Part shown: piece after piece, positions 1 to 43,416 of the stretch
How the letters are laid out: each line of letters starts with the position of its first letter
Numbering within the stretch: the first letter of the stretch is position 1
Origin: Escherichia phage KS_S9
Direction: 5' to 3' (one strand)
DNA length: 44,983 bases
Sequence record: PP920551.1
Notes under the pieces: generated by a model
Databases searched by the model: none
Told to the model about the DNA's origin: nothing
Seen by the model: only the letters and a program-made list of their open reading frames with translations
Translations under genes and position numbers: made by a program

Positions 1-43
1 ATGTTGCCGATGGTCGGCGCATATGCACAAAAGGGCTTATATC

Positions 44-595
44 ATGGCAGAAATTAAAGTTAAAGGCCGTCGAGCTAAACTGGACGGACGAGTAGCAGTT
101 ACCCCGCGCCGTAAACCAGGCGAGCAAACCGAGCATACCAATCTCGGACCTGAGATCGAGTACGGAAAGCGCCGTAAAGGCGGCAAATGTGGACGCCCTA
201 CTGACTACCGATCCGTTTACTGCGACCAGCTTCGCCGCTATTTTGCCGACGCCGACGCATGGCAGGTCAACTACTCCGATAAAGGCGCTGCGCAAGTAAT
301 CCCCCGCAACAAAATGCCAACCTTCGGTCGATTTGCCGCGGAAATCGGCGTGGGCGTAGCTTGCCTGTATCGCTGGGCGCGTGCGCATGAGGAGTTCGCT
401 GAGGCGATGGCGGACGCAATGGAGTTACAAAAAACCTTCCTGATGGAAGCTGGCGGCGTGACCATCGCGGCGGGCTTCGCTACCTTCCTGCTTAAAGCTA
501 ACCACGGCGTCCGGGACGATGTACCGCTGGATGACGACGAAGATGATAACGGCGACGTCGTTGTGGAACCTACCGGCAAAGGCCAGGGTGATTAA
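44..595 (+). CDS. Putative terminase small subunit
   Basis: ORF directly upstream of large terminase with TAATG stop/start overlap; basic N-terminus, acidic C-terminus; AAGGG RBS 8 nt before ATG 44 (ORF track start 23 is an alternative). Confidence 0.6.
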   Translation: MAEIKVKGRRAKLDGRVAVTPRRKPGEQTEHTNLGPEIEYGKRRKGGKCGRPTDYRSVYCDQLRRYFADADAWQVNYSDKGAAQVIPRNKMPTFGRFAAEIGVGVACLYRWARAHEEFAEAMADAMELQKTFLMEAGGVTIAAGFATFLLKANHGVRDDVPLDDDEDDNGDVVVEPTGKGQGD

Positions 596-1980
596 TGCGT
601 AACTATGCGGCAGAACATCGTGCCCTTGAACGAGCGATCGCAAAGCGAAACCGACCGCCGCGCCCGACACGCGTTGCGCAGGCCGTCCGCCTTTACCAGC
701 CTGATTGCTTGCCGCACCAGGTTGAACTACTGCGTGACACGAAGACTAAAATCCTCGGCCTGTGTTCCGGCTTCGGCGGCGGTAAGTCATGGGTCGCGGC
801 GAGAAAGGTCATCCAGCTTTTAACACTAAACCCCGGTCATGATGGCATCGTAACAGAACCGACGATTCCCCTCCTGGTTAAAATCATGTATCCGGAATTG
901 GAAAAGGCATTCGACGAGGCGGGCTTCCGGTGGAAGTTCAATAAGCAGGACAAGATCTATAACGTGCTTGTGAAAGGCAAATGGACCCGCGTTATCTGTG
1001 AGTCAATGGAGAACTATACCCGCCTGATCGGGGTCAACGCCGCGTGGATTGTTGCCGATGAGTTCGACACCACTAAGCAGGACGTTGCAATTGCGGCGTA
1101 TCACAAATTGCTCGGTCGTCTGCGTGCAGGCTTTGTACGCCAGTTCGTCATCGTGTCCACCCCGGAAGGCTACCGGGCGATGTACCAGATTTTCGAAGTG
1201 GAGAAGGATAGCCAAAAACGTTTGATCCGGGCGAAGACTACCGACAACCACCATTTGCCCGCAGACTTTATAGACACGCTGCGCAGTCAGTACCCGGCTA
1301 ACCTGATCGATGCGTACCTGAACGGCCTGTTTGTCAACCTTACGTCTGGCGCGGTGTACAAGATGTTCAACCGGGAGGAGAACGCCAGCACCGAAGAAGT
1401 GCAGCCCGACGACACGCTGATTATCGGTATGGACTTTAACGTCACGAAAATGGCGGCGGTCGTGTACGTCAGACGGCAGCGCATCACCGAAAACAAGGAG
1501 TTCCGCGACGAGATACACGCAGTGGATGAATTTGTGGACCTGTTTGACACCCCAGCTATGATTGAGGCGATCGAGGAGCGCTACCCGGAACATTGTGCCG
1601 CCGGTAGGGTCGTCGTTTACCCGGATAGCAGCGGCAAATCCCGCAAGACGGTCAACGCGTCGTCGTCCGATATCGCACAACTGGAAGACGCGGGCTTCGA
1701 GGTGGAGTATGACAGCGTTAACCCGCCTGTGAAAGACCGACTGATCGCGATGAATACGATGATGTGCAACTCGAAGGGCGTGCGCCAGTATTTTGTCAAC
1801 CTGGATAAATGCCCTACACTAGCGAAATGTCTGGAACAGCAGGTTTACGACCTGAAGAAAGGCGAGCCGGATAAAACCGCCGGTGTGGACCACATGAACG
1901 ATGCCGCGGGCTATCCAATTGCGCACCTGTTCCCAGTGATTCGCCCAATCGCCGTTGTTCCAACTGTAGACTTCTACTAA
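595..1980 (+). CDS. Terminase large subunit
   Basis: 461 aa; Walker A-like LGLCSGFGGGKS and Walker B-like WIVADEFD in N-terminal ATPase part; position before portal. Confidence 0.9.
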   Translation: MRNYAAEHRALERAIAKRNRPPRPTRVAQAVRLYQPDCLPHQVELLRDTKTKILGLCSGFGGGKSWVAARKVIQLLTLNPGHDGIVTEPTIPLLVKIMYPELEKAFDEAGFRWKFNKQDKIYNVLVKGKWTRVICESMENYTRLIGVNAAWIVADEFDTTKQDVAIAAYHKLLGRLRAGFVRQFVIVSTPEGYRAMYQIFEVEKDSQKRLIRAKTTDNHHLPADFIDTLRSQYPANLIDAYLNGLFVNLTSGAVYKMFNREENASTEEVQPDDTLIIGMDFNVTKMAAVVYVRRQRITENKEFRDEIHAVDEFVDLFDTPAMIEAIEERYPEHCAAGRVVVYPDSSGKSRKTVNASSSDIAQLEDAGFEVEYDSVNPPVKDRLIAMNTMMCNSKGVRQYFVNLDKCPTLAKCLEQQVYDLKKGEPDKTAGVDHMNDAAGYPIAHLFPVIRPIAVVPTVDFY

Positions 1981-5811: not shown

Positions 5812-5840
5812 TAGTGTGTCCTCGTTGTTGGTGTGCAACC

Positions 5841-5869
5841 AATATATGCAACCAATACGAGGATTGCAA
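5841..5869 (-). promoter_or_regulatory. Sigma70-like promoter for gene 5047..5811
   Basis: On minus strand TTGCAA-N17-TATATT, with ATTGGTTGCA motif copies forming the -35 and spacer; about 25 nt upstream of ATG. Confidence 0.45.
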
Positions 5870-11425: not shown

Positions 11426-11427
11426 TG

Positions 11428-11741
11428 AAGCGGGACAGGCGGGACGTCCCGTTTTGTCCCGCCTCTGTAAAACCGCATATCTAATCACTTTCATTGCATA
11501 AACTCAAAGCGGGACAGGCGGGACGTCCCGTTTTGTCACGCCCTGTAAATGTGCATACCTATGCGGATTTCGTGCATAAACCAAACGGGACAGAAAGCGG
11601 GACAAACAAGAGGCGGGACAAAGCGGGACAGCACCCCGTCCCCGCCAGTGCTGCCGCGGGTTTTAGCCGATCGGGACAGCGGGACAGCACCCCAGTCTTT
11701 CAGACTAGACGGGGGTCAATGGCCCCCCTCGTCTGAGACTG
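11428..11741. repeat. Iteron-like repeat region: 2x nested 35-bp palindrome, GCGGGACA direct repeats, long GC hairpin
   Basis: AGCGGGACAGGCGGGACGTCCCGTTTTGTC(C/A)CGCC at 11428 and 11508; GCGGGACA x6 at 11586-11692; hairpin 11693-11741; 11572-11741 duplicated at 39895-40065. Confidence 0.8.
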
Positions 11742-11809
11742 AATAAGGTTTGTTTTAAATTCGCTGATACAATGACCGACGGCAACTGCATAAAAAGGGG
11801 GACTGCATA

Positions 11810-14452
11810 ATGGCAGATCAGGCAGCGGGCATCACGCTCAAGGCGGACGCCGCGCAAATTAAAACGGCTAATACTGTGCTGGACACATTTGCGCAGAAAT
11901 CCGAGAACACAGAACAGAAAGTAAAGAAATTAAACGACACACTCGGCAAGTCGAAAAAGGTTACTGGCGACGCCGCGGGCGGAATGGAAAAGTTAGCGAC
12001 TGAATCGCAGCGCGCCGCCGACGGCATGACGAAACAGGAGCGACTCGCCAGCCGATTAGGCATGTCGACCAAAAACCTGGGATTCGCATCGCGGAACGCC
12101 GCATTCCAGTTACAGGATATCGCGGTTACGCTAGAGATGGGTATGCCGGTGCACCGCGTTATGCTTCAGCAGCTACCTCAGCTTACTGGGGCGTTTGGCG
12201 GACTGGGTAACACGCTGCGCTATGTTGCGGGCTTTCTCGGCCCAGTGGGGATCGGACTTGCTGCCGTAACGGCGACGTTAGGCGTAGGGGTGGCAATTAC
12301 GACCCGCGCAGAGAACCAAGTGGCGGCGCTTAATAAGACGCTGGCGCTGTCCGGTAATATTTCGGGCCTCACAGCTAACCAGATCCTTGTGCTGTCCGAG
12401 AACGCTGAGCGCATGGGCGGGTCATTTCGCAAGACGCGCGACACAATCCAGGCGCTGGCGGCGGCGGGTGTGAAAGCGGGTGGTGACTTCGGCGCATTGG
12501 CTAAGGTAGTTAATGACTTTGCGAAGGTGTCCAGCCAGCCGATCGAGGATGTGGTAGCGGCGGTGGCGAAGCTGTCAACCGACCCCGTTGGCGGACTGCG
12601 TGCGCTGGCGGATAAGTATCACGTCGTAAACGAAGCGCAGATCCAGCAGGTACAGTCGCTCGTTGATGCGGGTCGTGAGACAGACGCAGTTGCGTTGGCT
12701 AACAAAACAGCCGCTGCGTCGTTCACCAGCATGACCAATGAGATCAAGGCGAACATGGGTACGCTTGAGCGGTCGATGAACGTCGTCACATCGGCAGCCA
12801 AATCGATGTGGGACGCTATCCTGGATGTGGGTCGCGCGCAGTCCTCCAATGAATCCGAGATGAAAGCGCGCGAATCACTGCAGCGGCTGACCACGGCTTA
12901 CTATGCCGAGATGAAAGCGGTAAACGCTGCCGGTGGGGTAATGACTGAAGCGCAGAAAGCACGTATTAACATGCTTTACAGCGAACTGGTCGCCCAGGAA
13001 AAAGTGGTGGCGTCGCTAACCCTGCGTAACCGTGCTGAGCGAGACAACGCCCGCGCCGCAGACGAATCCGCAAAGGCGAACGAGGAGGCCAACCGCACTG
13101 CCCGTGACCGCGCCGCGTTCGAGAAGGAATACGCCACCAACGCTAAGAAGCGCGCCGACGAGATCGCCCGCCTCAATTTGCTGAATAAGCGCGGCGTTAT
13201 TGATGAGAAAGAACTAGCCGAGGCGGTGAAGCAGGTAAACGAGCGGTACAAAGACCCAGCCCCGAAAAAGGCCGCGGCTGTTCGCGTGGATGCCGGTATG
13301 AAAATGCTGGAAGTCGCACGGAGCGAACTGGCCCAGCTTCGAGAATCCGGCAAGCAGATCGAAGCCAACGCGTCTACGCAGACCCGCACGCAACGCGCTC
13401 AAGCGGCCTTAAACAAGCTGATCGCCGACAATGAGCAGTTAATCGCTGCGAGCAAAGAAAGAGCACTAACGGCAGCAGAAAAGCAGCAATTAGTCGAGTT
13501 CGGGCGCGTGAAGGAAGTCCGCGAGCAGATCGTCGAAGAAGCCAAATTGCTGGATGCGAAAGAGCAGCAGGTTAAGGCGCACGCGCAGATCGATGCCTTC
13601 GTTAAGAACCAGAACGCCGAACTAAAAGCCACCGCCGCGGGGTATGCGCTTTCCACTCGCGAAGCGGCAAACCTGCGTGAAGAATTGCAGCTAATTGACC
13701 GCCTGAAGCGGGTTGGCGCTAACGATACCGATATTGACAAGGCGGTGTCTAAGCTGCGAGAAGTGCAGGAAGCACAGACCGGCGCTAACGCCACGTTATG
13801 GGATGGATTCAGTCGCGGGCTTAAGGATAGCGTGGATGAAATGGGTAACGGATATACGCAGATGGCGTCGCTCACGAAATTTACATTCAGCGCTATGCAG
13901 GACACGATGAACGAGTTTTTCGAGACTGGTAAGCTGAACGCAAAGGATATGGTTAAGTCCATCCTGAGCGAATTAATCAAGCTGGCTACCTCGCAGGCGT
14001 TCAAGTCCATCGTTAGCGCTTTCGGTGGCGACGGCGGCAAAAACGGATTGTTCGGCGCTATCTTCTCTGGCCTTACTAAGAATGCGGACGGCGGAGCGTA
14101 CGCAGGCGGCAATCTCGCGGCCTATTCGGGGAAAGTGGTAAGCCAGCCTACCTTTTTCAGTTATGGCGTCCAGGCGTTCGCTAAGGGCGCTGGGTTGATG
14201 GGTGAGGCTGGACCCGAGGCCATCATGCCACTGAAGCGCGGGCCTGACGGGAAACTGGGCGTTGCCGCGTCTGGCGCAGGCGGTGGTATGGTCGTGACGA
14301 CTAACGTTTACACGGGGACCGGTAAAACGGATACCAGTGTCAGCGGGCCGGACCCACGTACCGCGCAGGCGTTCGGCAAGCAAATCACCGAGGCGGTGAA
14401 GGCCGAGATCGTGAAGGCGACGAAACCGGGTGGTGTACTTTACAAACGATGA
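11810..14452 (+). CDS. Tail tape measure protein
   Basis: 880 aa, Ala/Gln/Glu-rich helical protein with hydrophobic segment and Gly-rich C-terminus; follows G/GT chaperone. Confidence 0.9.
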   Translation: MADQAAGITLKADAAQIKTANTVLDTFAQKSENTEQKVKKLNDTLGKSKKVTGDAAGGMEKLATESQRAADGMTKQERLASRLGMSTKNLGFASRNAAFQLQDIAVTLEMGMPVHRVMLQQLPQLTGAFGGLGNTLRYVAGFLGPVGIGLAAVTATLGVGVAITTRAENQVAALNKTLALSGNISGLTANQILVLSENAERMGGSFRKTRDTIQALAAAGVKAGGDFGALAKVVNDFAKVSSQPIEDVVAAVAKLSTDPVGGLRALADKYHVVNEAQIQQVQSLVDAGRETDAVALANKTAAASFTSMTNEIKANMGTLERSMNVVTSAAKSMWDAILDVGRAQSSNESEMKARESLQRLTTAYYAEMKAVNAAGGVMTEAQKARINMLYSELVAQEKVVASLTLRNRAERDNARAADESAKANEEANRTARDRAAFEKEYATNAKKRADEIARLNLLNKRGVIDEKELAEAVKQVNERYKDPAPKKAAAVRVDAGMKMLEVARSELAQLRESGKQIEANASTQTRTQRAQAALNKLIADNEQLIAASKERALTAAEKQQLVEFGRVKEVREQIVEEAKLLDAKEQQVKAHAQIDAFVKNQNAELKATAAGYALSTREAANLREELQLIDRLKRVGANDTDIDKAVSKLREVQEAQTGANATLWDGFSRGLKDSVDEMGNGYTQMASLTKFTFSAMQDTMNEFFETGKLNAKDMVKSILSELIKLATSQAFKSIVSAFGGDGGKNGLFGAIFSGLTKNADGGAYAGGNLAAYSGKVVSQPTFFSYGVQAFAKGAGLMGEAGPEAIMPLKRGPDGKLGVAASGAGGGMVVTTNVYTGTGKTDTSVSGPDPRTAQAFGKQITEAVKAEIVKATKPGGVLYKR

Positions 14453-25416: not shown

Positions 25417-25446
25417 AATATAATGCAACCAACCTATTGGTTGCAA
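25417..25446 (-). promoter_or_regulatory. Sigma70-like promoter overlapping perfect palindrome TGCAACCAA-ccta-TTGGTTGCA
   Basis: On minus strand TTGCAA-N18-TATATT; palindrome 25424-25445 straddles the stop of the HAD-like gene; leader hairpin CGGGGC-N6-GCCCCG at 25391-25408. Confidence 0.45.
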
Positions 25447-27326: not shown

Positions 27327-27355
27327 AATATAATGCAACCAATCTAATTATGCAA
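27327..27355 (-). promoter_or_regulatory. Sigma70-like promoter with tandem ATTGGTTGCA motif
   Basis: On minus strand TTGCAT-N17-TATATT; two direct motif copies 17 bp apart. Confidence 0.45.
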
Positions 27356-27360
27356 CCAAT

Positions 27361-30283: not shown

Positions 30284-30312
30284 ACTATACCGCTATGCGA
30301 CCAATTCAGCAA
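30284..30312 (-). promoter_or_regulatory. Putative internal sigma70-like promoter
   Basis: Minus strand TTGCTG-N17-TATAGT with ATTGGTTGC / ATTGGTCGCA motif copies; ~25 nt upstream of ATG 30252. Confidence 0.35.
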
Positions 30313-30571
30313 CCAATAAATCGCAGTCGGCTATGTTGTCGATAACGCGAACGTCAGCACCGCGGCGGGCCATTCGCTCATGTTCACGTACCTGGTGCGG
30401 CTTCGGTTTTCCTCCGGGGCGCTTCACTTCGACGAACACTATTTTGCCGTTGATGATAATAATCAGGTCGGGCGCACCTGCGCGCCCCTCCCATGCCAGT
30501 TTTCGGCAGAATCCGCCAACATCTTTCACCCGTCTCATCAGGTGGCTTTGAATCTTGCCTTCTGGTGTCAT
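30293..30571 (-). CDS. VRR-NUC domain nuclease
   Basis: 92 aa from ATG 30571 (TAATG overlap with polymerase stop): GAPDLIII..GKIVFVEVKRPGG..Q matches the VRR-NUC PD-(D/E)xK pattern. Confidence 0.65.
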   Translation of the reverse strand: MTPEGKIQSHLMRRVKDVGGFCRKLAWEGRAGAPDLIIIINGKIVFVEVKRPGGKPKPHQVREHERMARRGADVRVIDNIADCDLLVAELVA

Positions 30572-33087: not shown

Positions 33088-33867
33088 TTAACGGCGGCGT
33101 TTACGTGGCGCTTCGTCTTCGTCGTCGTCCTCATCTTCGTCATCGCGTGGCTTACGACGTTTGCGAGGTTTCTCATCTTCGTCTTCGTCGTCGTCATCGC
33201 GGCGCTTGGATTTTTTGGACTTGCGCGGCTTGTCGTCTTCGTCATCGTCATCACGACGTTTTGACTTTTTGGACTTACGCGGGCTTTCGTCTTCGTCATC
33301 GTTGTCCAGGTCTTCGTCGGAACATGAAGACCCGCCACCTCCGAAGGCTTCGCCGTCTTCACGGAATCGCAGACCCAGCAAGCCAGCCCCGAGACCCTTG
33401 CCGTTGGTGTTGTTCCACGCCCAAATATCCAGCGACACGTTGCAATAACAACCGGAGTAGATCTCCTGGCCTTCGATCTCGTCGCCTTCTACGGTCAGAC
33501 CTTGTTCAGTCTGCTTCTCGCCGAGTGACGTCTGAATGATCGGCTGTTTGAACGATTTGGCGTTGATGTACAACATGCCTTCAAATTCTTCGGTTACTTC
33601 GTCGCGCTCGTCACCGTCGCGAACTGCGCATTCCTTAGAATCCTGGGCGTAGTGACGGTCCATCCACTTATCGGCATTCTTCTCGGATTTCAGCTTATCG
33701 GTGAGCACTGCGCGCGCTGCCGCTTCCACTTTGTCCACCTGCGGATCTTCTTTATCCAGAAGAATAACGGCACGGTATGCCGGTTTTTGACCATCCTGTT
33801 TAGGGGTATCACGTTCCCAAATTTTAAGGAAGCATACGCGCACATTTTTCAGGTTGACTTTAGCCAT
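33088..33867 (-). CDS. Single-stranded DNA-binding protein (DUF2815-like) with repetitive basic/acidic C-terminal tail
   Basis: 259 aa from ATG 33867 (GAGGAA RBS): MAKVNLKNVRV...YINAKS...YSGCY matches the DUF2815 phage SSB pattern; C-terminus has repeats of KPRKSKKSKRRDDDDED. Confidence 0.6.
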   Translation of the reverse strand: MAKVNLKNVRVCFLKIWERDTPKQDGQKPAYRAVILLDKEDPQVDKVEAAARAVLTDKLKSEKNADKWMDRHYAQDSKECAVRDGDERDEVTEEFEGMLYINAKSFKQPIIQTSLGEKQTEQGLTVEGDEIEGQEIYSGCYCNVSLDIWAWNNTNGKGLGAGLLGLRFREDGEAFGGGGSSCSDEDLDNDDEDESPRKSKKSKRRDDDDEDDKPRKSKKSKRRDDDDEDEDEKPRKRRKPRDDEDEDDDEDEAPRKRRR

Positions 33868-33957
33868 TTTCCAATTCCTCATTTTCACATGTATCGGGGT
33901 TATTGGAGGCCACCCCGTTCGGCTTGGTTGCCAATTTACTTGGTTGCGCTTAAGCGG

Positions 33958-36111: not shown

Positions 36112-36741
36112 TTAATCTTCCAGTTCGAAATAGGTTTCGACGATTTCTTTTAAATCTTTGTGGAAGTCTTCAACGTCGTCATCTTCCAGCTTGGCGATTG
36201 ATTTGATTTCGAACGCGTCCAGCAGATCATCAAATTCGTCGTTCGCGTCGTCGTCATCACCGCCTGCGATAATCGCGGCATACTGTTTGATCTCGTCGCG
36301 CATCTCCGCCAGCGGATCGGCATCTTTGTCCAGCAGATCATCAAATTCGTCGTTCGCGTCGTCGTCATCACCGCCTGCGATAATCGCGGCATACTGTTTG
36401 ATCTCGTCGCGCATCTCCGCCAGCGGATCGGCATCTTTCTTGCCTTTGCCTTTTGCCGGTGCTTTTTTAGACTTAGCCGGTTTTTCGGCTTCGGCGTCTT
36501 CGTCGTCGTCATCTTCTACGACTTCTTTTTTGGCCTTACCTTTCGCCGGTGCTTTTTTAGATTTAGCCGGTTTTTCGTCTTCGACTTCATCGTCGTCATC
36601 TTCGACAACTTCTTTTTTGGCCTTAGACGGCTTCTTATCTTCCTGTTTACCAACGGCCGCGCCAACGGTTTCATAATGCTTTGCAATGGTTTCCAGTGCT
36701 ACTACGCCGCGAGTGATCAGGTTTACGATTTGCTCAAACAT
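36112..36741 (-). CDS. Early acidic repeat protein (Lys-rich and poly-Asp/Glu blocks); function unknown
   Basis: 209 aa from ATG 36741 (GGAGA RBS); contains a perfect 37-aa tandem duplication (DADPLAEMRDEIKQYAAIIAGGDDDDANDEFDDLLD) and KPAKSKKAPAKGK repeats; monocistronic. Confidence 0.6.
   Translation of the reverse strand: MFEQIVNLITRGVVALETIAKHYETVGAAVGKQEDKKPSKAKKEVVEDDDDEVEDEKPAKSKKAPAKGKAKKEVVEDDDDEDAEAEKPAKSKKAPAKGKGKKDADPLAEMRDEIKQYAAIIAGGDDDDANDEFDDLLDKDADPLAEMRDEIKQYAAIIAGGDDDDANDEFDDLLDAFEIKSIAKLEDDDVEDFHKDLKEIVETYFELED
36220..36441. repeat. Near-perfect 111-bp tandem duplication inside gene 36112..36741
   Basis: Unit starting CAGCAGATCATCAAATTCGTCG at 36220 repeats at 36331; identical through ...GGCATCTTT. 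Confidence 0.85.
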
Positions 36742-36937
36742 GGTATATCTCCGATTGGTTAAGTTTAGGTGTCGGCAGTTAACTTCGTCGGTGGCCTTAA
36801 CATATTGCCAGGTTACGCGTTCTCCCGTTCGGGTAGTGGACCTGGTTATATAATCACGGTTGGGAATCCTGACACTTCGATCCGGCCCCTGCGTTGCCCC
36901 TCTCCAGTTTGCGTCCTGCATCCTGTCGACGGAGTGA

Positions 36938-37143: not shown

Positions 37144-37473
37144 ATGAATGTAAACGACGCAATCGAAATGTTAACGAAGACTGTTTGCAGTGAGACAAGC
37201 CGGTCATGGGCATACACCGATGCCGTGGGGGCTGTGTTATTTGAAATCGAACGACTGCGGCTTACCGAAAAAGAATTGCGCGCCCGGCTGGAATTACTCA
37301 ACGGTACGGCGGCCAGCAAGCTGCAAAAGCACAATGAAGAAATGGAAGAATACAAAAAGCAGGTTATCCGTTTGCGCGACGAAGGGAAATCATGGGCGAT
37401 GATTGCAGAGCTAACCGGAATTAATCAGAGCACCGTGCGATCCTGGGTACGCAATAATAAAACCTCTAAGTAA
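37144..37473 (+). CDS. HTH DNA-binding protein (putative transcriptional regulator)
   Basis: 109 aa, GAGGG RBS; C-terminal helix-turn-helix-like segment SWAMIAELTGINQSTVRSWVRN; first gene of rightward unit. Confidence 0.55.
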   Translation: MNVNDAIEMLTKTVCSETSRSWAYTDAVGAVLFEIERLRLTEKELRARLELLNGTAASKLQKHNEEMEEYKKQVIRLRDEGKSWAMIAELTGINQSTVRSWVRNNKTSK

Positions 37474-37483
37474 GGCAACGGCA

Positions 37484-39748
37484 ATGAGCTTAATTAAATT
37501 CGCAGTAACACGACCCGCTAAAAAAGGCGAAAAAGCCAGGGCGGAAAACTACCAGATGACAACCGATGAGTTTTTCGAATTTATCAATGACGCGAAAGAA
37601 ATTTCCTCGGTGCATATCAACAAGACGGAAGATAAAGCCGAGTATGCGCGCCGCAAGCGTAAGGCCGATGGCATCGTGGCTTATACCAGTGATGGGCTGC
37701 GCCGCAAGACCAGTGCCGTGGACCGCTCGATCCTGTTCTTCGATATTGACCGCACCGACACCCGCACCCTGCGCCGCTGCCGTAAGGCGTTCATCGACGC
37801 GGGTCTGGAACACGTATTTCACACCACCACCGGCGACCGCCACCCGCTGAAGGGCGGCACGCGTTGCGCCCGTTTCCTGGTGCTCACTGACAAGCCTGTA
37901 CCGGCTGAAGACCTGGGCCGCGTCCAGTATGCACTATTACACCAACTGGGCCTGTCAGATGTGGACTTCGACGACTGTACAAAAGACACAAACCGCCTTA
38001 TGTACCTGCCACACCAACAGTCTGTTATCAAATGCCATTACGGAAAGCGCGCCCGTGTCCGTCGTCTGCTTCGCCTGGCCGATAAGCTGGGAATGGAAAA
38101 AGAGGAAGTACGCCGCGAACTAACCCAGGGCGATGACGGCGTGGCGGACGGTATTCTGGATTGGTGCTTCCAGGCGGGATTCGAACCGCTGTCGTCCGGT
38201 CGTGGTTATGAAGTGCCGTGCCCAAACGAACACCTGCATAGCGGCGAAGGGTCCACCGCTATCATGGTTAAGGATGGCGAGATCCGTTTCAAGTGTATGC
38301 ACACCGGCAACGAGTGTTGCTCGGAACTGAACAGACACCAGCACCTGGCGCTACGTCTTATCGGGATCCCGGACCACCTGAACGTCGAACCGCACAACAT
38401 GTCACGTAAGCAAATCGCCGCCATCCTCCCAGGACTGGACGACGAGGAAGTGGAATCGTGCTATGCGCATATCGTTGATGCGGTCGGAGACGGCGACGAG
38501 TACGGCGGATGTACGGACGCAGACCTGGACAACGAGCCGGTTGCACTGTTCAGCAAGCACGACCCGATCATCGAGGGGTTGATTAACTTTAAATCGACCT
38601 GGTATCTTGCCGGTGAGTCGAACATCGGTAAGTCGTTCTATGTGCTGGGCCAGATGGCGTCCGTATCTGCCGGTATCCCGTTTGGCGGTGCGAAGGTCGT
38701 CCAGTGCCATAACTTCTATTTCGACGCGGAAGGTGGTGAAGCCTCCAACCAGCGTAAGGAAGCATTGCAGATCAAATATGAGCACGACCTGGACAAGCTG
38801 CACATTATAGACCTGCAATCTCGCGGCTGGGATATCACCAGCAAATCAGGACTGCGTGAAGTTATCAGCTTTATCAATCGCACCGCTAACGGCGAACCGG
38901 TTGGCCTGGTGGCGTTCGACTCACTCAACCAGACTGTTGCGTTGCGGTCCGCCGATGCCAAACCGTTCGACGAGAACAACGCCAGCGATATGGGCGAAGT
39001 TGTCAAGGCGCTGAAGGCCATTGCGGAAAATACAGGCGGCAGTGCGGGCATCATCCACCACCCGGCGAAGGGTGCAAACGGCAGCAGAACGCCACGCGGA
39101 TCTGGCGCGCTTCATGGTGCTGTCGATTCTGCGTTCTTCCTGGAACAGCCGGACGACAACCAGCCAGGCCAATTGAACTTGTATCACGAAAAGGCACGTA
39201 ACGGCATCAAGCAAGCGCCACGAGGCTTCGTCCTGCTCAAGTGCAAGGTTAAGGTGGATCTCCGCAAGTCCGAAGCGTTCGAAGCCCACCAGTCCACCAG
39301 CACCGGGCCTGACTTCGGCGACGTGGTTGCCGGTTGGGACGTCAAGCCGATCGCATCCACGCCACGCGACGAGACTCTCTACCTCGTACCGGTCGCCCTG
39401 GCACCATTCGCCATCGAACAGGCAAAGGCCACTGGCAAAGCAGCAGTTAAGGAAGAGAACGCCGCAGGACCGCGCAACGAAAAAGAGAAAGTGCTTTATG
39501 CGGCACTGGAAAAACTGATGGAAGATAACCCGGACCATACCGGATTCAGTAAATCGGCAATTGTCCGCCAGGCTGGACTTGCGAAAGGTGGCACATCGAC
39601 GAAGGCAATAGACGATATGGTGGAGCGCGGCGTGCTCGGTTTTTATACAGATCCGCACACCGGGGCCATCTATGGGTCGTCGAATATCGTCATCAAAACG
39701 AATATACCCATCACGCTTTCGGCGACCGACGATGACCTGAAAGATTAA
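37484..39748 (+). CDS. Primase-helicase-like replication protein (P-loop NTPase C-terminal domain)
   Basis: 754 aa; Walker A GESNIGKS and Walker B-like GLVAFDSLNQ in C-terminal half; N-terminal half has acidic DxD-containing segments (FFDIDRTD) as in primase domains. Confidence 0.6.
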   Translation: MSLIKFAVTRPAKKGEKARAENYQMTTDEFFEFINDAKEISSVHINKTEDKAEYARRKRKADGIVAYTSDGLRRKTSAVDRSILFFDIDRTDTRTLRRCRKAFIDAGLEHVFHTTTGDRHPLKGGTRCARFLVLTDKPVPAEDLGRVQYALLHQLGLSDVDFDDCTKDTNRLMYLPHQQSVIKCHYGKRARVRRLLRLADKLGMEKEEVRRELTQGDDGVADGILDWCFQAGFEPLSSGRGYEVPCPNEHLHSGEGSTAIMVKDGEIRFKCMHTGNECCSELNRHQHLALRLIGIPDHLNVEPHNMSRKQIAAILPGLDDEEVESCYAHIVDAVGDGDEYGGCTDADLDNEPVALFSKHDPIIEGLINFKSTWYLAGESNIGKSFYVLGQMASVSAGIPFGGAKVVQCHNFYFDAEGGEASNQRKEALQIKYEHDLDKLHIIDLQSRGWDITSKSGLREVISFINRTANGEPVGLVAFDSLNQTVALRSADAKPFDENNASDMGEVVKALKAIAENTGGSAGIIHHPAKGANGSRTPRGSGALHGAVDSAFFLEQPDDNQPGQLNLYHEKARNGIKQAPRGFVLLKCKVKVDLRKSEAFEAHQSTSTGPDFGDVVAGWDVKPIASTPRDETLYLVPVALAPFAIEQAKATGKAAVKEENAAGPRNEKEKVLYAALEKLMEDNPDHTGFSKSAIVRQAGLAKGGTSTKAIDDMVERGVLGFYTDPHTGAIYGSSNIVIKTNIPITLSATDDDLKD

Positions 39749-39861
39749 ATCCTGCGCGCATTGGTTGCCGATATGGGGATTACCATATCGCTAAAAGGTT
39801 AAATTTTGCGCGCATTGGTTGCCATTTTGAGTGTTTTTATCAGGTAGTATTGGTTGCCGTG
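39745..39861. repeat. Three direct repeats carrying TTGGTTGCC immediately downstream of primase-helicase gene
   Basis: TTAAATCCTGCGCGCATTGGTTGCCGAT at 39745, TTAAATTTTGCGCGCATTGGTTGCCATT at 39799, GTATTGGTTGCCGTG at 39847. Confidence 0.75.
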
Positions 39862-39894
39862 TATTGTGAATATAGTGAATAGTTATGCAGTTTT

Positions 39895-40065
39895 GGTGCA
39901 TAAAGTAAGCGGGACAGAAAGCGGGACAAACAAGGGGCGGGACAAAGCGGGACAGCACCCCCGTCCCGCCCCGGATGGCGCGGCCTGGAGAGGAGCGGGA
40001 CAGGCGGGACAACCCCCAGTCTTTCAGACTAGACGGGGGTCAGCGGCCCCCCTCGTCTGAGACTG
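39895..40065. repeat. Second copy of GGGACA-iteron plus hairpin element
   Basis: GCGGGACA x6 followed by hairpin CAGTCTTTCAGACTAGACGGGGGTCAGCGGCCCCCCTCGTCTGAGACTG; near-identical to 11572-11741 (loop differs TCAATGG vs TCAGCGG). Confidence 0.8.
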
Positions 40066-40282
40066 AATAAAATCCGGGGATTGCAAAATACACGGCAGCA
40101 CGATGCGAAGTGCTGGCGAGGATGAACTAGGCAACCAATACGAGTTGCATTATGCTGAGTGAAAAATGCAGTTTGCAGTCACAGCAGATAGCGATCAACT
40201 TTTTCATGCGCGTGATTAATATTGGTTGCATTCGGCCTGGCACCCGGCTATATTGGTCGCACACCAACATGAGGACTGATCG

Positions 40283-40588
40283 ATGAGAGCACTAATCTGG
40301 AATTACTCACTGGCCCTGGCAAAGCTGAACGAAGCGAAAGCGCTAAACGGCAACGTAGACCGTGCGCGCCAGTTTGCGACACTGGCATACCAGTCAATCA
40401 TGTGTGCGCTAGACGATATGGACGCCGGCATGGATGACCTGGGTCCGCTGCGTAAGGCAATCCATGAATACGCGCTGGCATTCTCCCGTGAGCGCCTGGC
40501 TTATCGCTTCGGTATTGGCGAGAAGGCAGTGACAAACGTCGCCAGGATTAAAGCCCAGCGTGAGCTATTCGCCCAGCTTGCGAAATAA
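40283..40588 (+). CDS. Hypothetical protein
   Basis: 101 aa, GAGGAC RBS, first ORF after the repeat-rich region. Confidence 0.5.
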   Translation: MRALIWNYSLALAKLNEAKALNGNVDRARQFATLAYQSIMCALDDMDAGMDDLGPLRKAIHEYALAFSRERLAYRFGIGEKAVTNVARIKAQRELFAQLAK

Positions 40589-43352: not shown

Positions 43353-43416
43353 ATTGCTTGACTCGCAACCAACACAGGGGCCATACTGCAACCAATCAAC
43401 TGGAGGAGTAATCAAG

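What the first reader, a model, noticed from the sequence alone, without database searches (positions are those of the whole stretch)
11428..11741. Iteron-like GGGACA repeats plus long GC hairpin between tail chaperone and tape measure genes, duplicated 28 kb away
The G/GT-to-tape-measure junction is normally tight, but here there is ~385 bp of noncoding DNA. It contains two copies of a 35-bp nested palindrome (AGCGGGACAGGCGGGACGTCCCGTTTTGTCCCGCC, core CGGGACGTCCCG) 80 bp apart, six GCGGGACA direct repeats, and a 49-nt imperfect hairpin. The last ~170 bp (11572-11741) recur nearly identically at 39895-40065. Two copies of a structured repeat, one in the late and one in the early/replication region, suggest protein-binding arrays such as replication origins, packaging or partition-like sites, or paired regulatory/RNA-processing elements.
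Basis: seen in the sequence. Interest (0 to 1): 0.75.

Follow-up and report, generated by a model that had tools for sequence, protein, structure and literature searches.

The report
Duplicated phage replication-origin iteron module
The two repeat-and-hairpin regions of this E. coli phage (a Dhillonvirus) are most likely two copies of its replication origin, arrays of CGGGACA binding sites for the phage's own helicase-primase; this kind of element is known, but this family is uncharacterised and now testable.

Summary
The 383-bp gap between the tail chaperone and tape-measure genes holds nine CGGGACA sites and a 49-nt hairpin. A paralogous module lies at 39875-40070, directly after the 754-aa helicase-primase gene.

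The window is a Dhillonvirus (HK578-like) genome. Across 16 such genomes the 7-mers and hairpin arms are under purifying selection, while the spacers drift at the synonymous rate.

Searching public viral contigs for CGGGACA arrays returned at least 120 loci. In 54 the only protein shared with this window is a distant homologue (about 25% identity) of that helicase. In 45 of those the array sits at the gene's 3' end, with a 10-12 bp pitch. Twelve more loci carry the array inside an O-like initiator gene.

Close relatives keep the layout and hairpin but use other repeat words (GTGTGGCA, GGTGCCA, GGGGAGA). Both loci change word together in the three lineages where both could be read, less firmly in two of them.

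The helicase-primase ends in a predicted winged-helix domain.

Best reading: an iteron-type origin next to its initiator gene, plus a second copy in the late operon, as with SPP1 oriL/oriR or P4 ori/crr. This is a new member of a known kind, and binding and initiation are untested.

The parts
11427..11809 (+). Locus A: the whole non-coding gap between the tail chaperone (G/GT) and the tape-measure gene
   Evidence: Chaperone extension stops at 11426. Tape-measure ORF is 11810..14452. No conserved ORF across 16 genomes.
11428..11463 (.). Nested palindrome 1: two direct and two inverted iterons (CGGGACA gg CGGGAC|GTCCCG ttt TGTCCCG)
   Evidence: DNA hairpin -12.9 kcal/mol, z -3.9.
11464..11506 (.). 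A+T-rich segment 1 (33% G+C against 55% for the genome), with GCATA motifs 21 bp apart
11507..11542 (.). Nested palindrome 2; the outer inverted iteron is degenerate (TGTCAC)
   Evidence: family D11, 97% identical to palindrome 1.
11543..11585 (.). A+T-rich segment 2 (40% G+C), homologous to 39867-39909; candidate DNA-unwinding element
11586..11646 (+). Main array: four direct CGGGACA (starts 11586, 11598, 11614, 11624), then a degenerate inverted copy GTCCCCG at 11638-11644
   Evidence: Iteron diversity 0.059 against 0.274 in the spacers.
11672..11686 (+). Two further direct CGGGACA sites (11672, 11680) immediately before the hairpin
11693..11741 (.). 49-nt imperfect G/C-run hairpin with nearly invariant arms and a free loop
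   Evidence: Arm diversity 0.005 and 0.026, loop 0.244. Two compensated pairs among 24 variants.
11765..11773 (+). TGATACAAT, an invariant extended -10-like element upstream of the tape-measure gene (possible rightward promoter at the module's edge)
   Evidence: Read. Zero diversity. Also present in L300. Function inferred only.
37484..39748 (+). Helicase-primase, 754 aa: the proposed initiator that binds the iterons
   Evidence: Pfam AAA_25, E 1.5e-19. PHROG 'replicative helicase-primase'; the N-terminus hits primase families.
39479..39694 (+). C-terminal winged-helix domain of the helicase-primase (residues about 666-737): the proposed iteron reader
   Evidence: AlphaFold2 pLDDT 80-87 with H-b-H-H-b-b topology. 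Best Foldseek hits are MarR, ArsR and histone H1 winged helices, E from 7e-3.
39749..40282 (+). Locus B: the whole intergenic region after the helicase-primase gene
39867..39909 (.). A+T-rich segment of locus B (30% G+C)
39910..39968 (+). Main array of locus B: four direct CGGGACA (39910, 39922, 39938, 39948), then an inverted GTCCCG at 39963-39968
   Evidence: Iteron diversity 0.068 against 0.201 at non-iteron positions.
39996..40011 (+). Two direct CGGGACA sites (39996, 40005) before the hairpin
40017..40065 (.). Hairpin of locus B; differs from the A copy by two loop bases

Best explanation
Both loci are DNA-level binding arrays (iterons) for one phage-encoded specificity protein, most likely the C-terminal winged helix of the 754-aa helicase-primase.

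Locus B, directly 3' of that gene, is the phage's replication origin. It consists of an A+T-rich segment, four phased direct CGGGACA sites, a head-to-head inverted site, two more sites, and a conserved G/C-run hairpin.

Proposed mechanism (inferred): the initiator molecules bind the phased repeats and oligomerise into the hexameric helicase. The adjacent A+T-rich DNA and/or the extruded hairpin gives the single strand on which the helicase loads and the primase domain starts synthesis.

Locus A, in the late operon, is an old paralogous copy held under the same selection. It acts either as a second origin or as a cis-acting partner or barrier bound by the same protein, as SPP1 oriR or P4 crr do.

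Shown here: the repeat anatomy, the selection on it, the linkage to initiator genes, the co-variation of the two loci, and the predicted DNA-binding fold. Inferred: who binds, that initiation happens here, and what locus A adds.
For: 1. Anatomy and phasing. CGGGACA is 3-fold over-represented, and 15 of 21 sites lie in the two loci. In helicase-linked loci the same-strand spacing peaks at 10-12 bp, with secondary peaks at 21 and 34 bp.

2. Linkage to initiator genes.
- Of 120 IMG/VR loci carrying three close CGGGACA sites, 34 by tblastn and 54 by clustering encode a distant homologue (about 25% identity) of this helicase.
- Essentially no other window protein is shared.
- In 45 of the 54 the array lies within about 330 bp of the gene's 3' end.
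- Most show the same layout: direct array, then inverted iterons flanking a G/C-run palindrome.
- Twelve further loci carry the array at 11-bp pitch inside an O-like/DnaD-like initiator gene.

3. Selection in 16 Dhillonvirus genomes (locus B is similar).
- Iterons 0.059; spacers 0.22-0.27.
- Codon position 3 of the flanking genes 0.22-0.27.
- Hairpin arms 0.005 and 0.026; loop 0.244.

4. Specificity module. Relatives keep the layout but use other words after the helicase gene:
- GTGTGGCA at 69% identity.
- GGTGCCA at 66% identity.
- GGGGAGA at 44% identity.
- AAAATAAA in BcepGomr.
- GTGTGCCA at 25% identity.

5. The two loci co-vary.
- CGGGACA at both in one 42-kb contig.
- GTGTGGC at both (5 and 9 sites) in two adjoining contigs of one sample.
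- GGGAT enriched at both in one contig.

6. The C-terminus is a predicted winged helix. Residues specific to the iteron type are about 3-fold enriched in the last 175 aa (Fisher p = 0.036).

7. Published precedents.
- SPP1 has an origin in its initiator gene and a second one in the late region (PMC6316719).
- pRN1-type primase-helicase-winged-helix proteins use a stem-loop 3' of their own gene as origin, also in phages (PMC4234260).
Against: - There is no experimental evidence for binding, unwinding or initiation.
- GC skew turns near 37 kb and 24 kb, but that coincides with the switches in gene orientation and is uninformative.
- The assignment of the reader protein is indirect. Recognition-helix differences between iteron types are small (GGT against GGS).
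- A 109-aa HTH protein encoded just upstream of the helicase gene in Dhillonvirus-like phages is an untested alternative binder.
- No similarity was detected between the helicase winged helix and the O-like initiators that share the same word (hhalign E 0.49).
- The A+T-rich segments are only moderately A+T-rich (30-40% G+C).
- Salmonella phage vB_STM-ZS has the module only after the helicase gene, so a late copy is not required in a relative whose helicase-primase is 44% identical.
- Jersey- and Kagunaviruses have no array after their homologous helicase gene.
- An initiator-bound array inside the tail operon would meet late transcription, which needs explaining.
Confidence: 0.65

Rival explanations
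1. The arrays are operator arrays for a phage transcription regulator, for example the 109-aa HTH protein at 37144..37473. They would control rightward promoters at the edge of each module (towards the tape-measure gene and towards the genes after 40283), with the hairpin acting as an insulator.
For: - Both modules sit upstream of + strand genes.
- An invariant extended -10-like TGATACAAT follows locus A.
- A shared ACGGCA(A/G)C motif follows both loci in several lineages.
- An HTH gene precedes the helicase gene in all Dhillonvirus-like relatives.
- Co-variation of the two loci would also fit a shared regulator.
Against: - In distant phages the only shared protein is the helicase, and the array sits at that gene's 3' end.
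- The same word occurs inside O-like initiator genes.
- A different motif, TTGGTTGC, is the one that pairs around promoter-like sites in this genome and is the better candidate operator.
- The hairpin lacks a T-run, while the phage's true terminators have one.
Confidence: 0.15
2. The modules act as RNA. They would be structured elements in the mRNA for processing (for example by RNase III), stabilisation or antitermination, or a small RNA that sponges a GGA-binding protein such as CsrA.
For: - Both copies are on the coding strand.
- The hairpin is long and imperfect, like phage RNase III sites.
- RNA folding of locus A gives z -3.4.
- One relative has a T-to-G change that keeps a G-U pair only in RNA.
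Against: - No Rfam family matches.
- Locus B folds no better than shuffles (z -1.4).
- In relatives the iterons occur in both orientations and as perfect DNA palindromes.
- Phasing at one helical turn is a duplex-DNA property.
- The word occurs inside protein-coding initiator genes.
- The word changes freely between relatives while the layout stays.
Confidence: 0.06
3. The modules are packaging (pac) or partition-type sites, or locus A is a functionless leftover of a duplication.
For: Repeated boxes occur at some pac sites. Locus A lies in the structural region. A relative with a related helicase lacks it.
Against: - The arrays track the helicase gene, not the terminase gene (23..1980), in every lineage examined.
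- No partition genes were seen.
- Iterons and hairpin arms of locus A are as constrained as first and second codon positions, while its spacers drift at the synonymous rate.
- Locus A persists, and switches word together with B, down to lineages with 46% helicase identity.
Confidence: 0.05

Closest known systems
Bacillus phage SPP1 oriL / oriR, bound by gp38
   Same: Two origin-like loci of similar build (direct repeats plus an A+T-rich segment). One lies at the initiator gene and the other interrupts the late virion-assembly genes. They are about 13 kb apart on a 44-kb genome, compared with about 16.6 kb on 45 kb here. Both are bound by the same initiator, and oriR is proposed to stall the fork and trigger the switch from theta to concatemeric replication (PMC6316719).
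   Different: SPP1 uses a separate origin-binding protein, a helicase loader and a DnaB-type helicase, together with the host primase. Here one polypeptide carries primase, helicase and winged helix. The repeats are unrelated in sequence. No homology to gp38 was tested. The hairpin has no described SPP1 counterpart.
Satellite phage P4 ori / crr and the alpha protein (from my own knowledge, not checked in a paper here)
   Same: A single primase-helicase with a C-terminal winged-helix domain binds short iterons at two separated loci, the origin and a second cis-required region.
   Different: The P4 iteron is TGTTCACC. P4 alpha has a different helicase class. A sequence search of all PDB chains found no relative of the window protein. 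The spacing and gene context differ.
pRN1 ORF904-type replicons, and phages such as Bordetella BIP-1
   Same: The replication protein combines primase, helicase and winged helix, and the origin is a stem-loop just 3' of its own gene. The authors noted the same arrangement in phages (PMC4234260).
   Different: That helicase belongs to superfamily 3; this one matches AAA_25 (RecA/DnaB-like). pRN1 has no iteron array. A prim-pol fold is not shown for the window protein.
Lambda-type O protein with iterons inside the O gene, and SaPI Rep-ori modules (from my own knowledge; SaPI Rep helicases appear in PMC9371898, listed but not read)
   Same: The initiator gene and its iterons travel as one specificity module. 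Related elements carry different iteron words. Twelve IMG/VR loci carry CGGGACA arrays inside an O-like gene.
   Different: Those initiators are different protein families. In the window the array lies outside the gene, and a second copy sits far away in the late operon.

Membership tests
Iteron-type replication origin (plasmid or phage) | Several copies of a short word, phased at about one helical turn | tested here: met
   Nine and six CGGGACA sites at the two loci. Family-wide spacing peaks at 10-12, 21 and 34 bp.
Iteron-type replication origin (plasmid or phage) | A cognate initiator gene linked in cis, with iteron word and initiator diverging together | tested here: met
   The array lies at the 3' end of the helicase gene in 45 of 54 loci. 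At least five different words occur with diverged helicases. The link to particular residues is only weak (p = 0.036).
Iteron-type replication origin (plasmid or phage) | An adjacent A+T-rich unwinding element | tested here: inconclusive
   43-bp segments of 30-40% G+C against 55% for the genome, next to arrays of 67-72% G+C. Unwinding was not tested.
Iteron-type replication origin (plasmid or phage) | The initiator binds the iterons and replication starts there | not testable with these tools
   Needs EMSA or footprinting and marker-frequency or 2-D gel mapping.
SPP1-type dual origin (oriL / oriR) | Two loci sharing the same repeats, one at the initiator gene and one in the late region | tested here: met
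   Both loci switch word together in the lineages where both could be read.
SPP1-type dual origin (oriL / oriR) | A gp38-like origin-binding protein with a separate loader and DnaB-type helicase | tested here: not met
   The gene next to the array is a fused primase-helicase-winged-helix protein. The system works like SPP1's but is not a member.
P4 alpha ori / crr | Homology to the alpha protein, and TGTTCACC iterons | tested here: not met
   No PDB chain matches the window protein by sequence. The iteron is CGGGACA. Only the domain order resembles alpha.
pRN1 ORF904-type replicon | A stem-loop origin 3' of the replication gene | tested here: met
   A conserved 49-nt hairpin lies 269 nt after the stop codon. 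G/C-run palindromes occupy the same position in distant loci.
pRN1 ORF904-type replicon | A superfamily-3 helicase and a prim-pol domain | tested here: not met
   The helicase core matches Pfam AAA_25. The N-terminus matches only PHROG primase families and no Pfam prim-pol model.
Known RNA families (Rfam 15) | A match at the gathering score | tested here: not met
   No match anywhere in the window.
Intrinsic transcription terminator | A G+C-rich hairpin followed directly by a T-run | tested here: not met
   The scan reports no + strand terminator at either hairpin. The sequences after the stems are GAATAAGG and GAATAAAA. True terminators in this genome carry TTTTT (family D7).

The most novel reading that the evidence does not exclude
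The 'phased iterons plus G/C-run palindrome or hairpin' module, placed 3' of an AAA_25 helicase-primase with a winged-helix tail, is a widespread and so far undescribed class of phage origin with rapidly swappable specificity. In Dhillonvirus-like phages, the second copy inside the tail operon would be a programmed initiator-bound site. It would either fire as a late origin or arrest forks to switch replication from theta to concatemer mode, and might couple replication to tape-measure and tail gene expression through the promoter at its edge.
Probability: 0.3. Interest if true: 0.6.

Novelty: new member of a known kind. Interest (0 to 1): 0.45.

Why it matters
- Dhillonviruses (HK578, SECphi18, BASEL Bas14-18) are widely used model and therapy-candidate E. 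coli phages, and I found no description of their origin of replication. The only prior mention found is a GenBank note on Sodalis phage SO-1.
- The analysis gives a concrete origin, a candidate initiator domain and a specificity code, all testable with simple binding and plasmid assays.
- It explains why a normally tight tail-gene junction holds 383 bp of conserved non-coding DNA.
- The natural iteron swaps (CGGGACA, GTGTGGCA, GGTGCCA, GGGGAGA) on a constant scaffold are a ready-made system for studying how initiator-origin specificity evolves.
- Those swaps also matter for predicting replication compatibility between co-infecting phages, and for designing origin-decoy resistance.

Tried and rejected
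- Rfam at gathering score over the whole window: nothing.
- RNA folding: locus A z -3.4, but locus B only -1.4. This does not persuade for an RNA.
- Coding test: the ORFs over locus A (11494..11736, 11549..11746) are annotated as hypothetical proteins in some records. They shift frame, change start or vanish in other genomes. Rejected as genes.
- Concerted evolution between A and B: not seen. Identity is A-A 0.86, B-B 0.87 and A-B 0.74-0.76, so they are old paralogues.
- GC skew as an origin marker: confounded by gene orientation.
- Host or plasmid decoy copies of the module: none in 5,426 E. coli genomes or in PLSDB.
- A shared DNA-binding domain between the helicase tail and the O-like initiators that use the same word: not detected by hhalign.
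- Literature: full-text searches for the word itself, for Dhillonvirus or HK578 repeats, and for the SO-1 phage paper gave nothing on these regions.
- A GTGTGCC pattern scan of viral contigs was too loose and yielded one useful locus, L292.
- The locus-A variant with GTGTGCCAAA iterons (L175) could not be paired with its locus B. Its contig lacks that part of the genome, and no cultured phage carries the variant.
- MAFFT/RNAalifold on the hairpins misaligned the G and C runs. The compensated pairs were read by hand.

Full report
**What the window is.** The 501 bases around the finding match 158 phage records at 80-96% identity. Almost all are Escherichia or Shigella Dhillonviruses (HK578-like siphophages of about 44-45 kb), so the window is essentially one such genome. 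The GenBank record of Sodalis phage SO-1 already marks the two homologous stretches as repeat regions A and B. Its note reads 'direct, inverted and palindromic repeat sequences ... possible ...', and the rest is cut off in the output. I found no paper that discusses them.

**Checking the observation.**
- The frameshifted tail-chaperone extension (DUF1799 type) ends at 11426, and the tape-measure ORF starts at 11810. That leaves 383 non-coding bases.
- CGGGACA occurs 21 times in the window against 6.5 +/- 2.6 expected. Nine sites lie in 11431-11686 and six in 39910-40011.
- The 36-nt nested palindrome occurs at 11428-11463 and 11507-11542.
- The 49-nt hairpin lies at 11693-11741 and again at 40017-40065. 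Both copies fold identically as DNA (-13.4 kcal/mol, z about -3.7), and the two differing bases are in the loop.
- The duplicated stretch, 11551-11746 against 39875-40070, is 82-85% identical rather than nearly identical. The iteron block and hairpin agree closely and a middle segment of about 40 nt differs.
- The second copy begins 127 bases after the stop codon of a 754-aa helicase-primase gene (37484..39748).

**It is not a gene and not an annotated RNA.** ORFs that some records annotate across locus A change frame or start, or are absent, in other Dhillonvirus genomes. The A and B copies would be read in different frames. Rfam finds nothing in the window. Neither hairpin is followed by a T-run, whereas this phage's real terminators are.

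**Selection.** I aligned 16 distinct Dhillonvirus genomes over the chaperone, locus A and the 5' part of the tape-measure gene. Pairwise diversity was as follows.
- 0.059 at the nine 7-mers.
- 0.216 at the other positions of 11428-11690.
- 0.274 in the spacers inside the main array.
- 0.005 and 0.026 in the hairpin arms.
- 0.244 in the loop.
- 0.22-0.27 at third codon positions of the flanking genes.
- 0.02-0.055 at first and second codon positions.

Locus B behaves the same way (0.068 against 0.201). The repeat words and hairpin arms are therefore constrained at least as strongly as amino-acid-determining positions, while the DNA between them drifts freely. This holds for the late-region copy too.

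The A and B copies form two orthologous groups (identity A-A 0.86, B-B 0.87, A-B 0.74-0.76). They are old paralogues, not copies homogenised by conversion.

- I compared all 52 plausible window proteins with those loci. Only the helicase-primase recurred: 34 loci by tblastn at about 25% identity over the AAA_25 core, with one stray hit for any other protein.
- Clustering of all nearby ORFs raised this to 54 loci. In 45 of them the array lies within about 330 bp of the gene's 3' end, as in the window.
- The layout recurs. After the stop codon comes a direct array of three to six sites, then inverted sites facing each other across a G/C-run palindrome with an A/T centre, for example CGGGACACCCCTATAGGGGTGTCCCG.
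- Same-strand spacing peaks at 10-12 bp, with further peaks at 21 and 34 bp. This phasing places bound proteins on one face of duplex DNA.
- Twelve other loci carry three to five CGGGACA sites at 11-bp pitch inside a gene whose product matches PHROG families for O-like or DnaD-like replication initiators. Lambda's origin lies inside gene O in the same way.
- The word is thus tied to replication-initiator genes in two unrelated protein contexts.

**A swappable specificity module.** Closer relatives keep the architecture after the helicase gene but use other words.
- GTGTGGCA at 69% helicase identity (L297/L302 and L296).
- GGTGCCA at 66% (L298).
- CGGGACA at 68% (L152).
- GGGGAGA in Salmonella phage vB_STM-ZS at 44%.
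- AAAATAAA flanking CCCCTCTCCCCTTTAGGGGAGGGG in Burkholderia phage BcepGomr.
- About 22 GTGTGCCA sites in L292 at 25%.

The constant architecture is an A+T-rich segment, direct sites, an inverted site, a spacer, two more sites and a terminal hairpin. Jersey- and Kagunaviruses, whose helicases are 32-35% identical, have only a terminator there. Divergence of the word on a constant scaffold is what initiator-origin pairs show in lambdoid phages and SaPIs (my own knowledge).

**Do the two loci answer to the same factor?** I used the portal protein as an anchor, so that one 21-kb fetch spans both loci.
- One 42-kb contig (helicase 68% identical) carries CGGGAC(A) arrays at both B and A.
- In sample ERR13731138, two contigs continue each other's gene order, overlap by nine terminal bases and sum to 45.4 kb. 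They carry GTGTGGC five times after the helicase gene and nine times before the tape-measure gene, with at most one CGGGACA anywhere.
- One 44-kb contig (helicase 46% identical) has GGGAT seven times in its 237-bp locus A (0.43 expected) and six times in locus B.
- Two more lineages with chaperones 60-62% identical have CGGGACA at locus A. A third has GTGTGCCAAA there, with the Dhillonvirus hairpin unchanged.
- Both loci therefore switch word together while the hairpin stays. This is expected if one diverging protein reads both arrays and a more conserved part of the machinery, or the structure itself, uses the hairpin.
- vB_STM-ZS has the array only after the helicase gene. Locus B is therefore the ancestral position, and locus A is an addition in the Dhillonvirus-like lineage.

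**The candidate reader.**
- The 754-aa protein matches Pfam AAA_25 in its centre and the PHROG family 'replicative helicase-primase' overall. Its first 180 residues hit primase families, and conserved Cys/His positions suggest a zinc site.
- An AlphaFold2 model of the last 169 residues gives a confident core (pLDDT 80-87) with winged-helix topology.
- All top Foldseek matches are winged-helix DNA binders (MarR family, ArsR, histone H1), at weak E-values from 7e-3.
- I counted positions that are constant among three CGGGACA-type proteins and different in both other types. There are 8 in the last 175 residues and 9 in the other 579 (Fisher p = 0.036). One is the Thr/Ser at the start of the predicted recognition helix.
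- This is suggestive only. The small HTH protein encoded just upstream remains an alternative binder.

**The hairpin.** Among 24 sequence variants the arms are almost invariant and the loop is free. Two pairs are compensated: A-T to G-C in L172/L174, and G-C to T-A in L302. One A-C mismatch and one T-G pair also occur. Both strands fold about equally well as DNA. Together with the perfect palindromes at the same position in distant loci, this fits a DNA-level structure or symmetric site better than an RNA.

**Comparison with known systems.** The closest functional analogue is SPP1. It has oriL inside the initiator gene and oriR interrupting the late genes. Both are built of direct repeats plus an A+T-rich element and both are bound by gp38. 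gp38-bound oriR is proposed to stall forks and trigger the switch to concatemeric replication (PMC6316719). P4's ori and crr, bound by the primase-helicase-winged-helix alpha protein, form another analogue (own knowledge). So do pRN1-type replicons, whose origin is a stem-loop 3' of a primase-helicase-winged-helix gene and which the authors also saw in phages (PMC4234260). The window's system is a member of none of these families:
- the helicase class differs;
- no PDB chain matches by sequence;
- the iterons are unrelated.

**Verdict.** The finding is a real, selectively maintained, duplicated protein-binding module. The best-supported reading is a replication origin next to its initiator gene plus a second copy in the late operon. 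Confidence is high that one diverging phage-encoded factor reads both arrays, and that the word is tied to replication-initiator genes in distant phages. It is moderate that the helicase-primase is the binder and that initiation occurs at locus B, and low on what locus A adds. It is a new, uncharacterised member of a known kind of system.

Noticed in passing
window 5835-5855, 25425-25444, 27335-27359, 30297-30316, 33924-33947, 36946, 39761-39857, 40131, 40222-40260, 43365-43395: A second repeated word, TTGGTTGC, occurs 20 times exactly against 1.9 expected. It mostly comes in pairs 12-23 bp apart in intergenic regions, some bracketing promoter-like hexamers (for example TTGCAT-N17-TATATT before the gene at 40283). 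It is likely the operator or promoter motif of a phage regulator, perhaps the HTH protein at 37144..37473. vB_STM-ZS has TTGGCTGC at the matching places.
   Followed up: partly
window 11765-11773, and ACGGCA(A/G)C at about 11780-11788 and 40093-40100: An invariant extended -10-like TGATACAAT lies between the hairpin and the tape-measure start. A shared ACGGCA(A/G)C motif lies downstream of both loci and recurs in relatives. This may be a rightward promoter at the edge of each module.
   Followed up: partly
L172 3674-4054; L174 3674-4422; L175 3662-3835; L299 20394-21142; L300 13616-13789: In related phages, one or two small reverse-strand genes of unknown function are inserted between the chaperone gene and locus A. 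The junction appears to be a hot spot for added genes.
   Followed up: no
window 36217-36438, 36429-36608 and 33101-33319: There is a perfect 111-bp tandem duplication and further 90-bp and 54-60-bp repeats, GTC/ATC-rich on the + strand. They fall inside minus-strand ORFs 36112..36921 and 33088..33888, which would encode acidic repeat proteins.
   Followed up: no
IMG/VR loci L010, L013, L017, L018, L025, L074, L076, L093, L100, L108, L119, L120: CGGGACA arrays at 11-bp pitch lie inside the linker region (SGTAAGQQRD-like) of O-like/DnaD-like initiator genes. The same iteron word is thus used with a second, unrelated initiator family.
   Followed up: partly
phage records MG065648.1 and OQ221563.1: 'Campylobacter phage A144' and 'Acinetobacter phage NJ01' are 95-97% identical to E. 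coli Dhillonviruses over these regions. The host labels are probably wrong or reflect contamination.
   Followed up: no
window 39867-39890 and 11550-11560: The A+T-rich segments contain TGTGAATAT and TGTGCATAC, which resemble the relaxed DnaA-box consensus at 8 of 9 positions. This was read by eye and not tested statistically.
   Followed up: no
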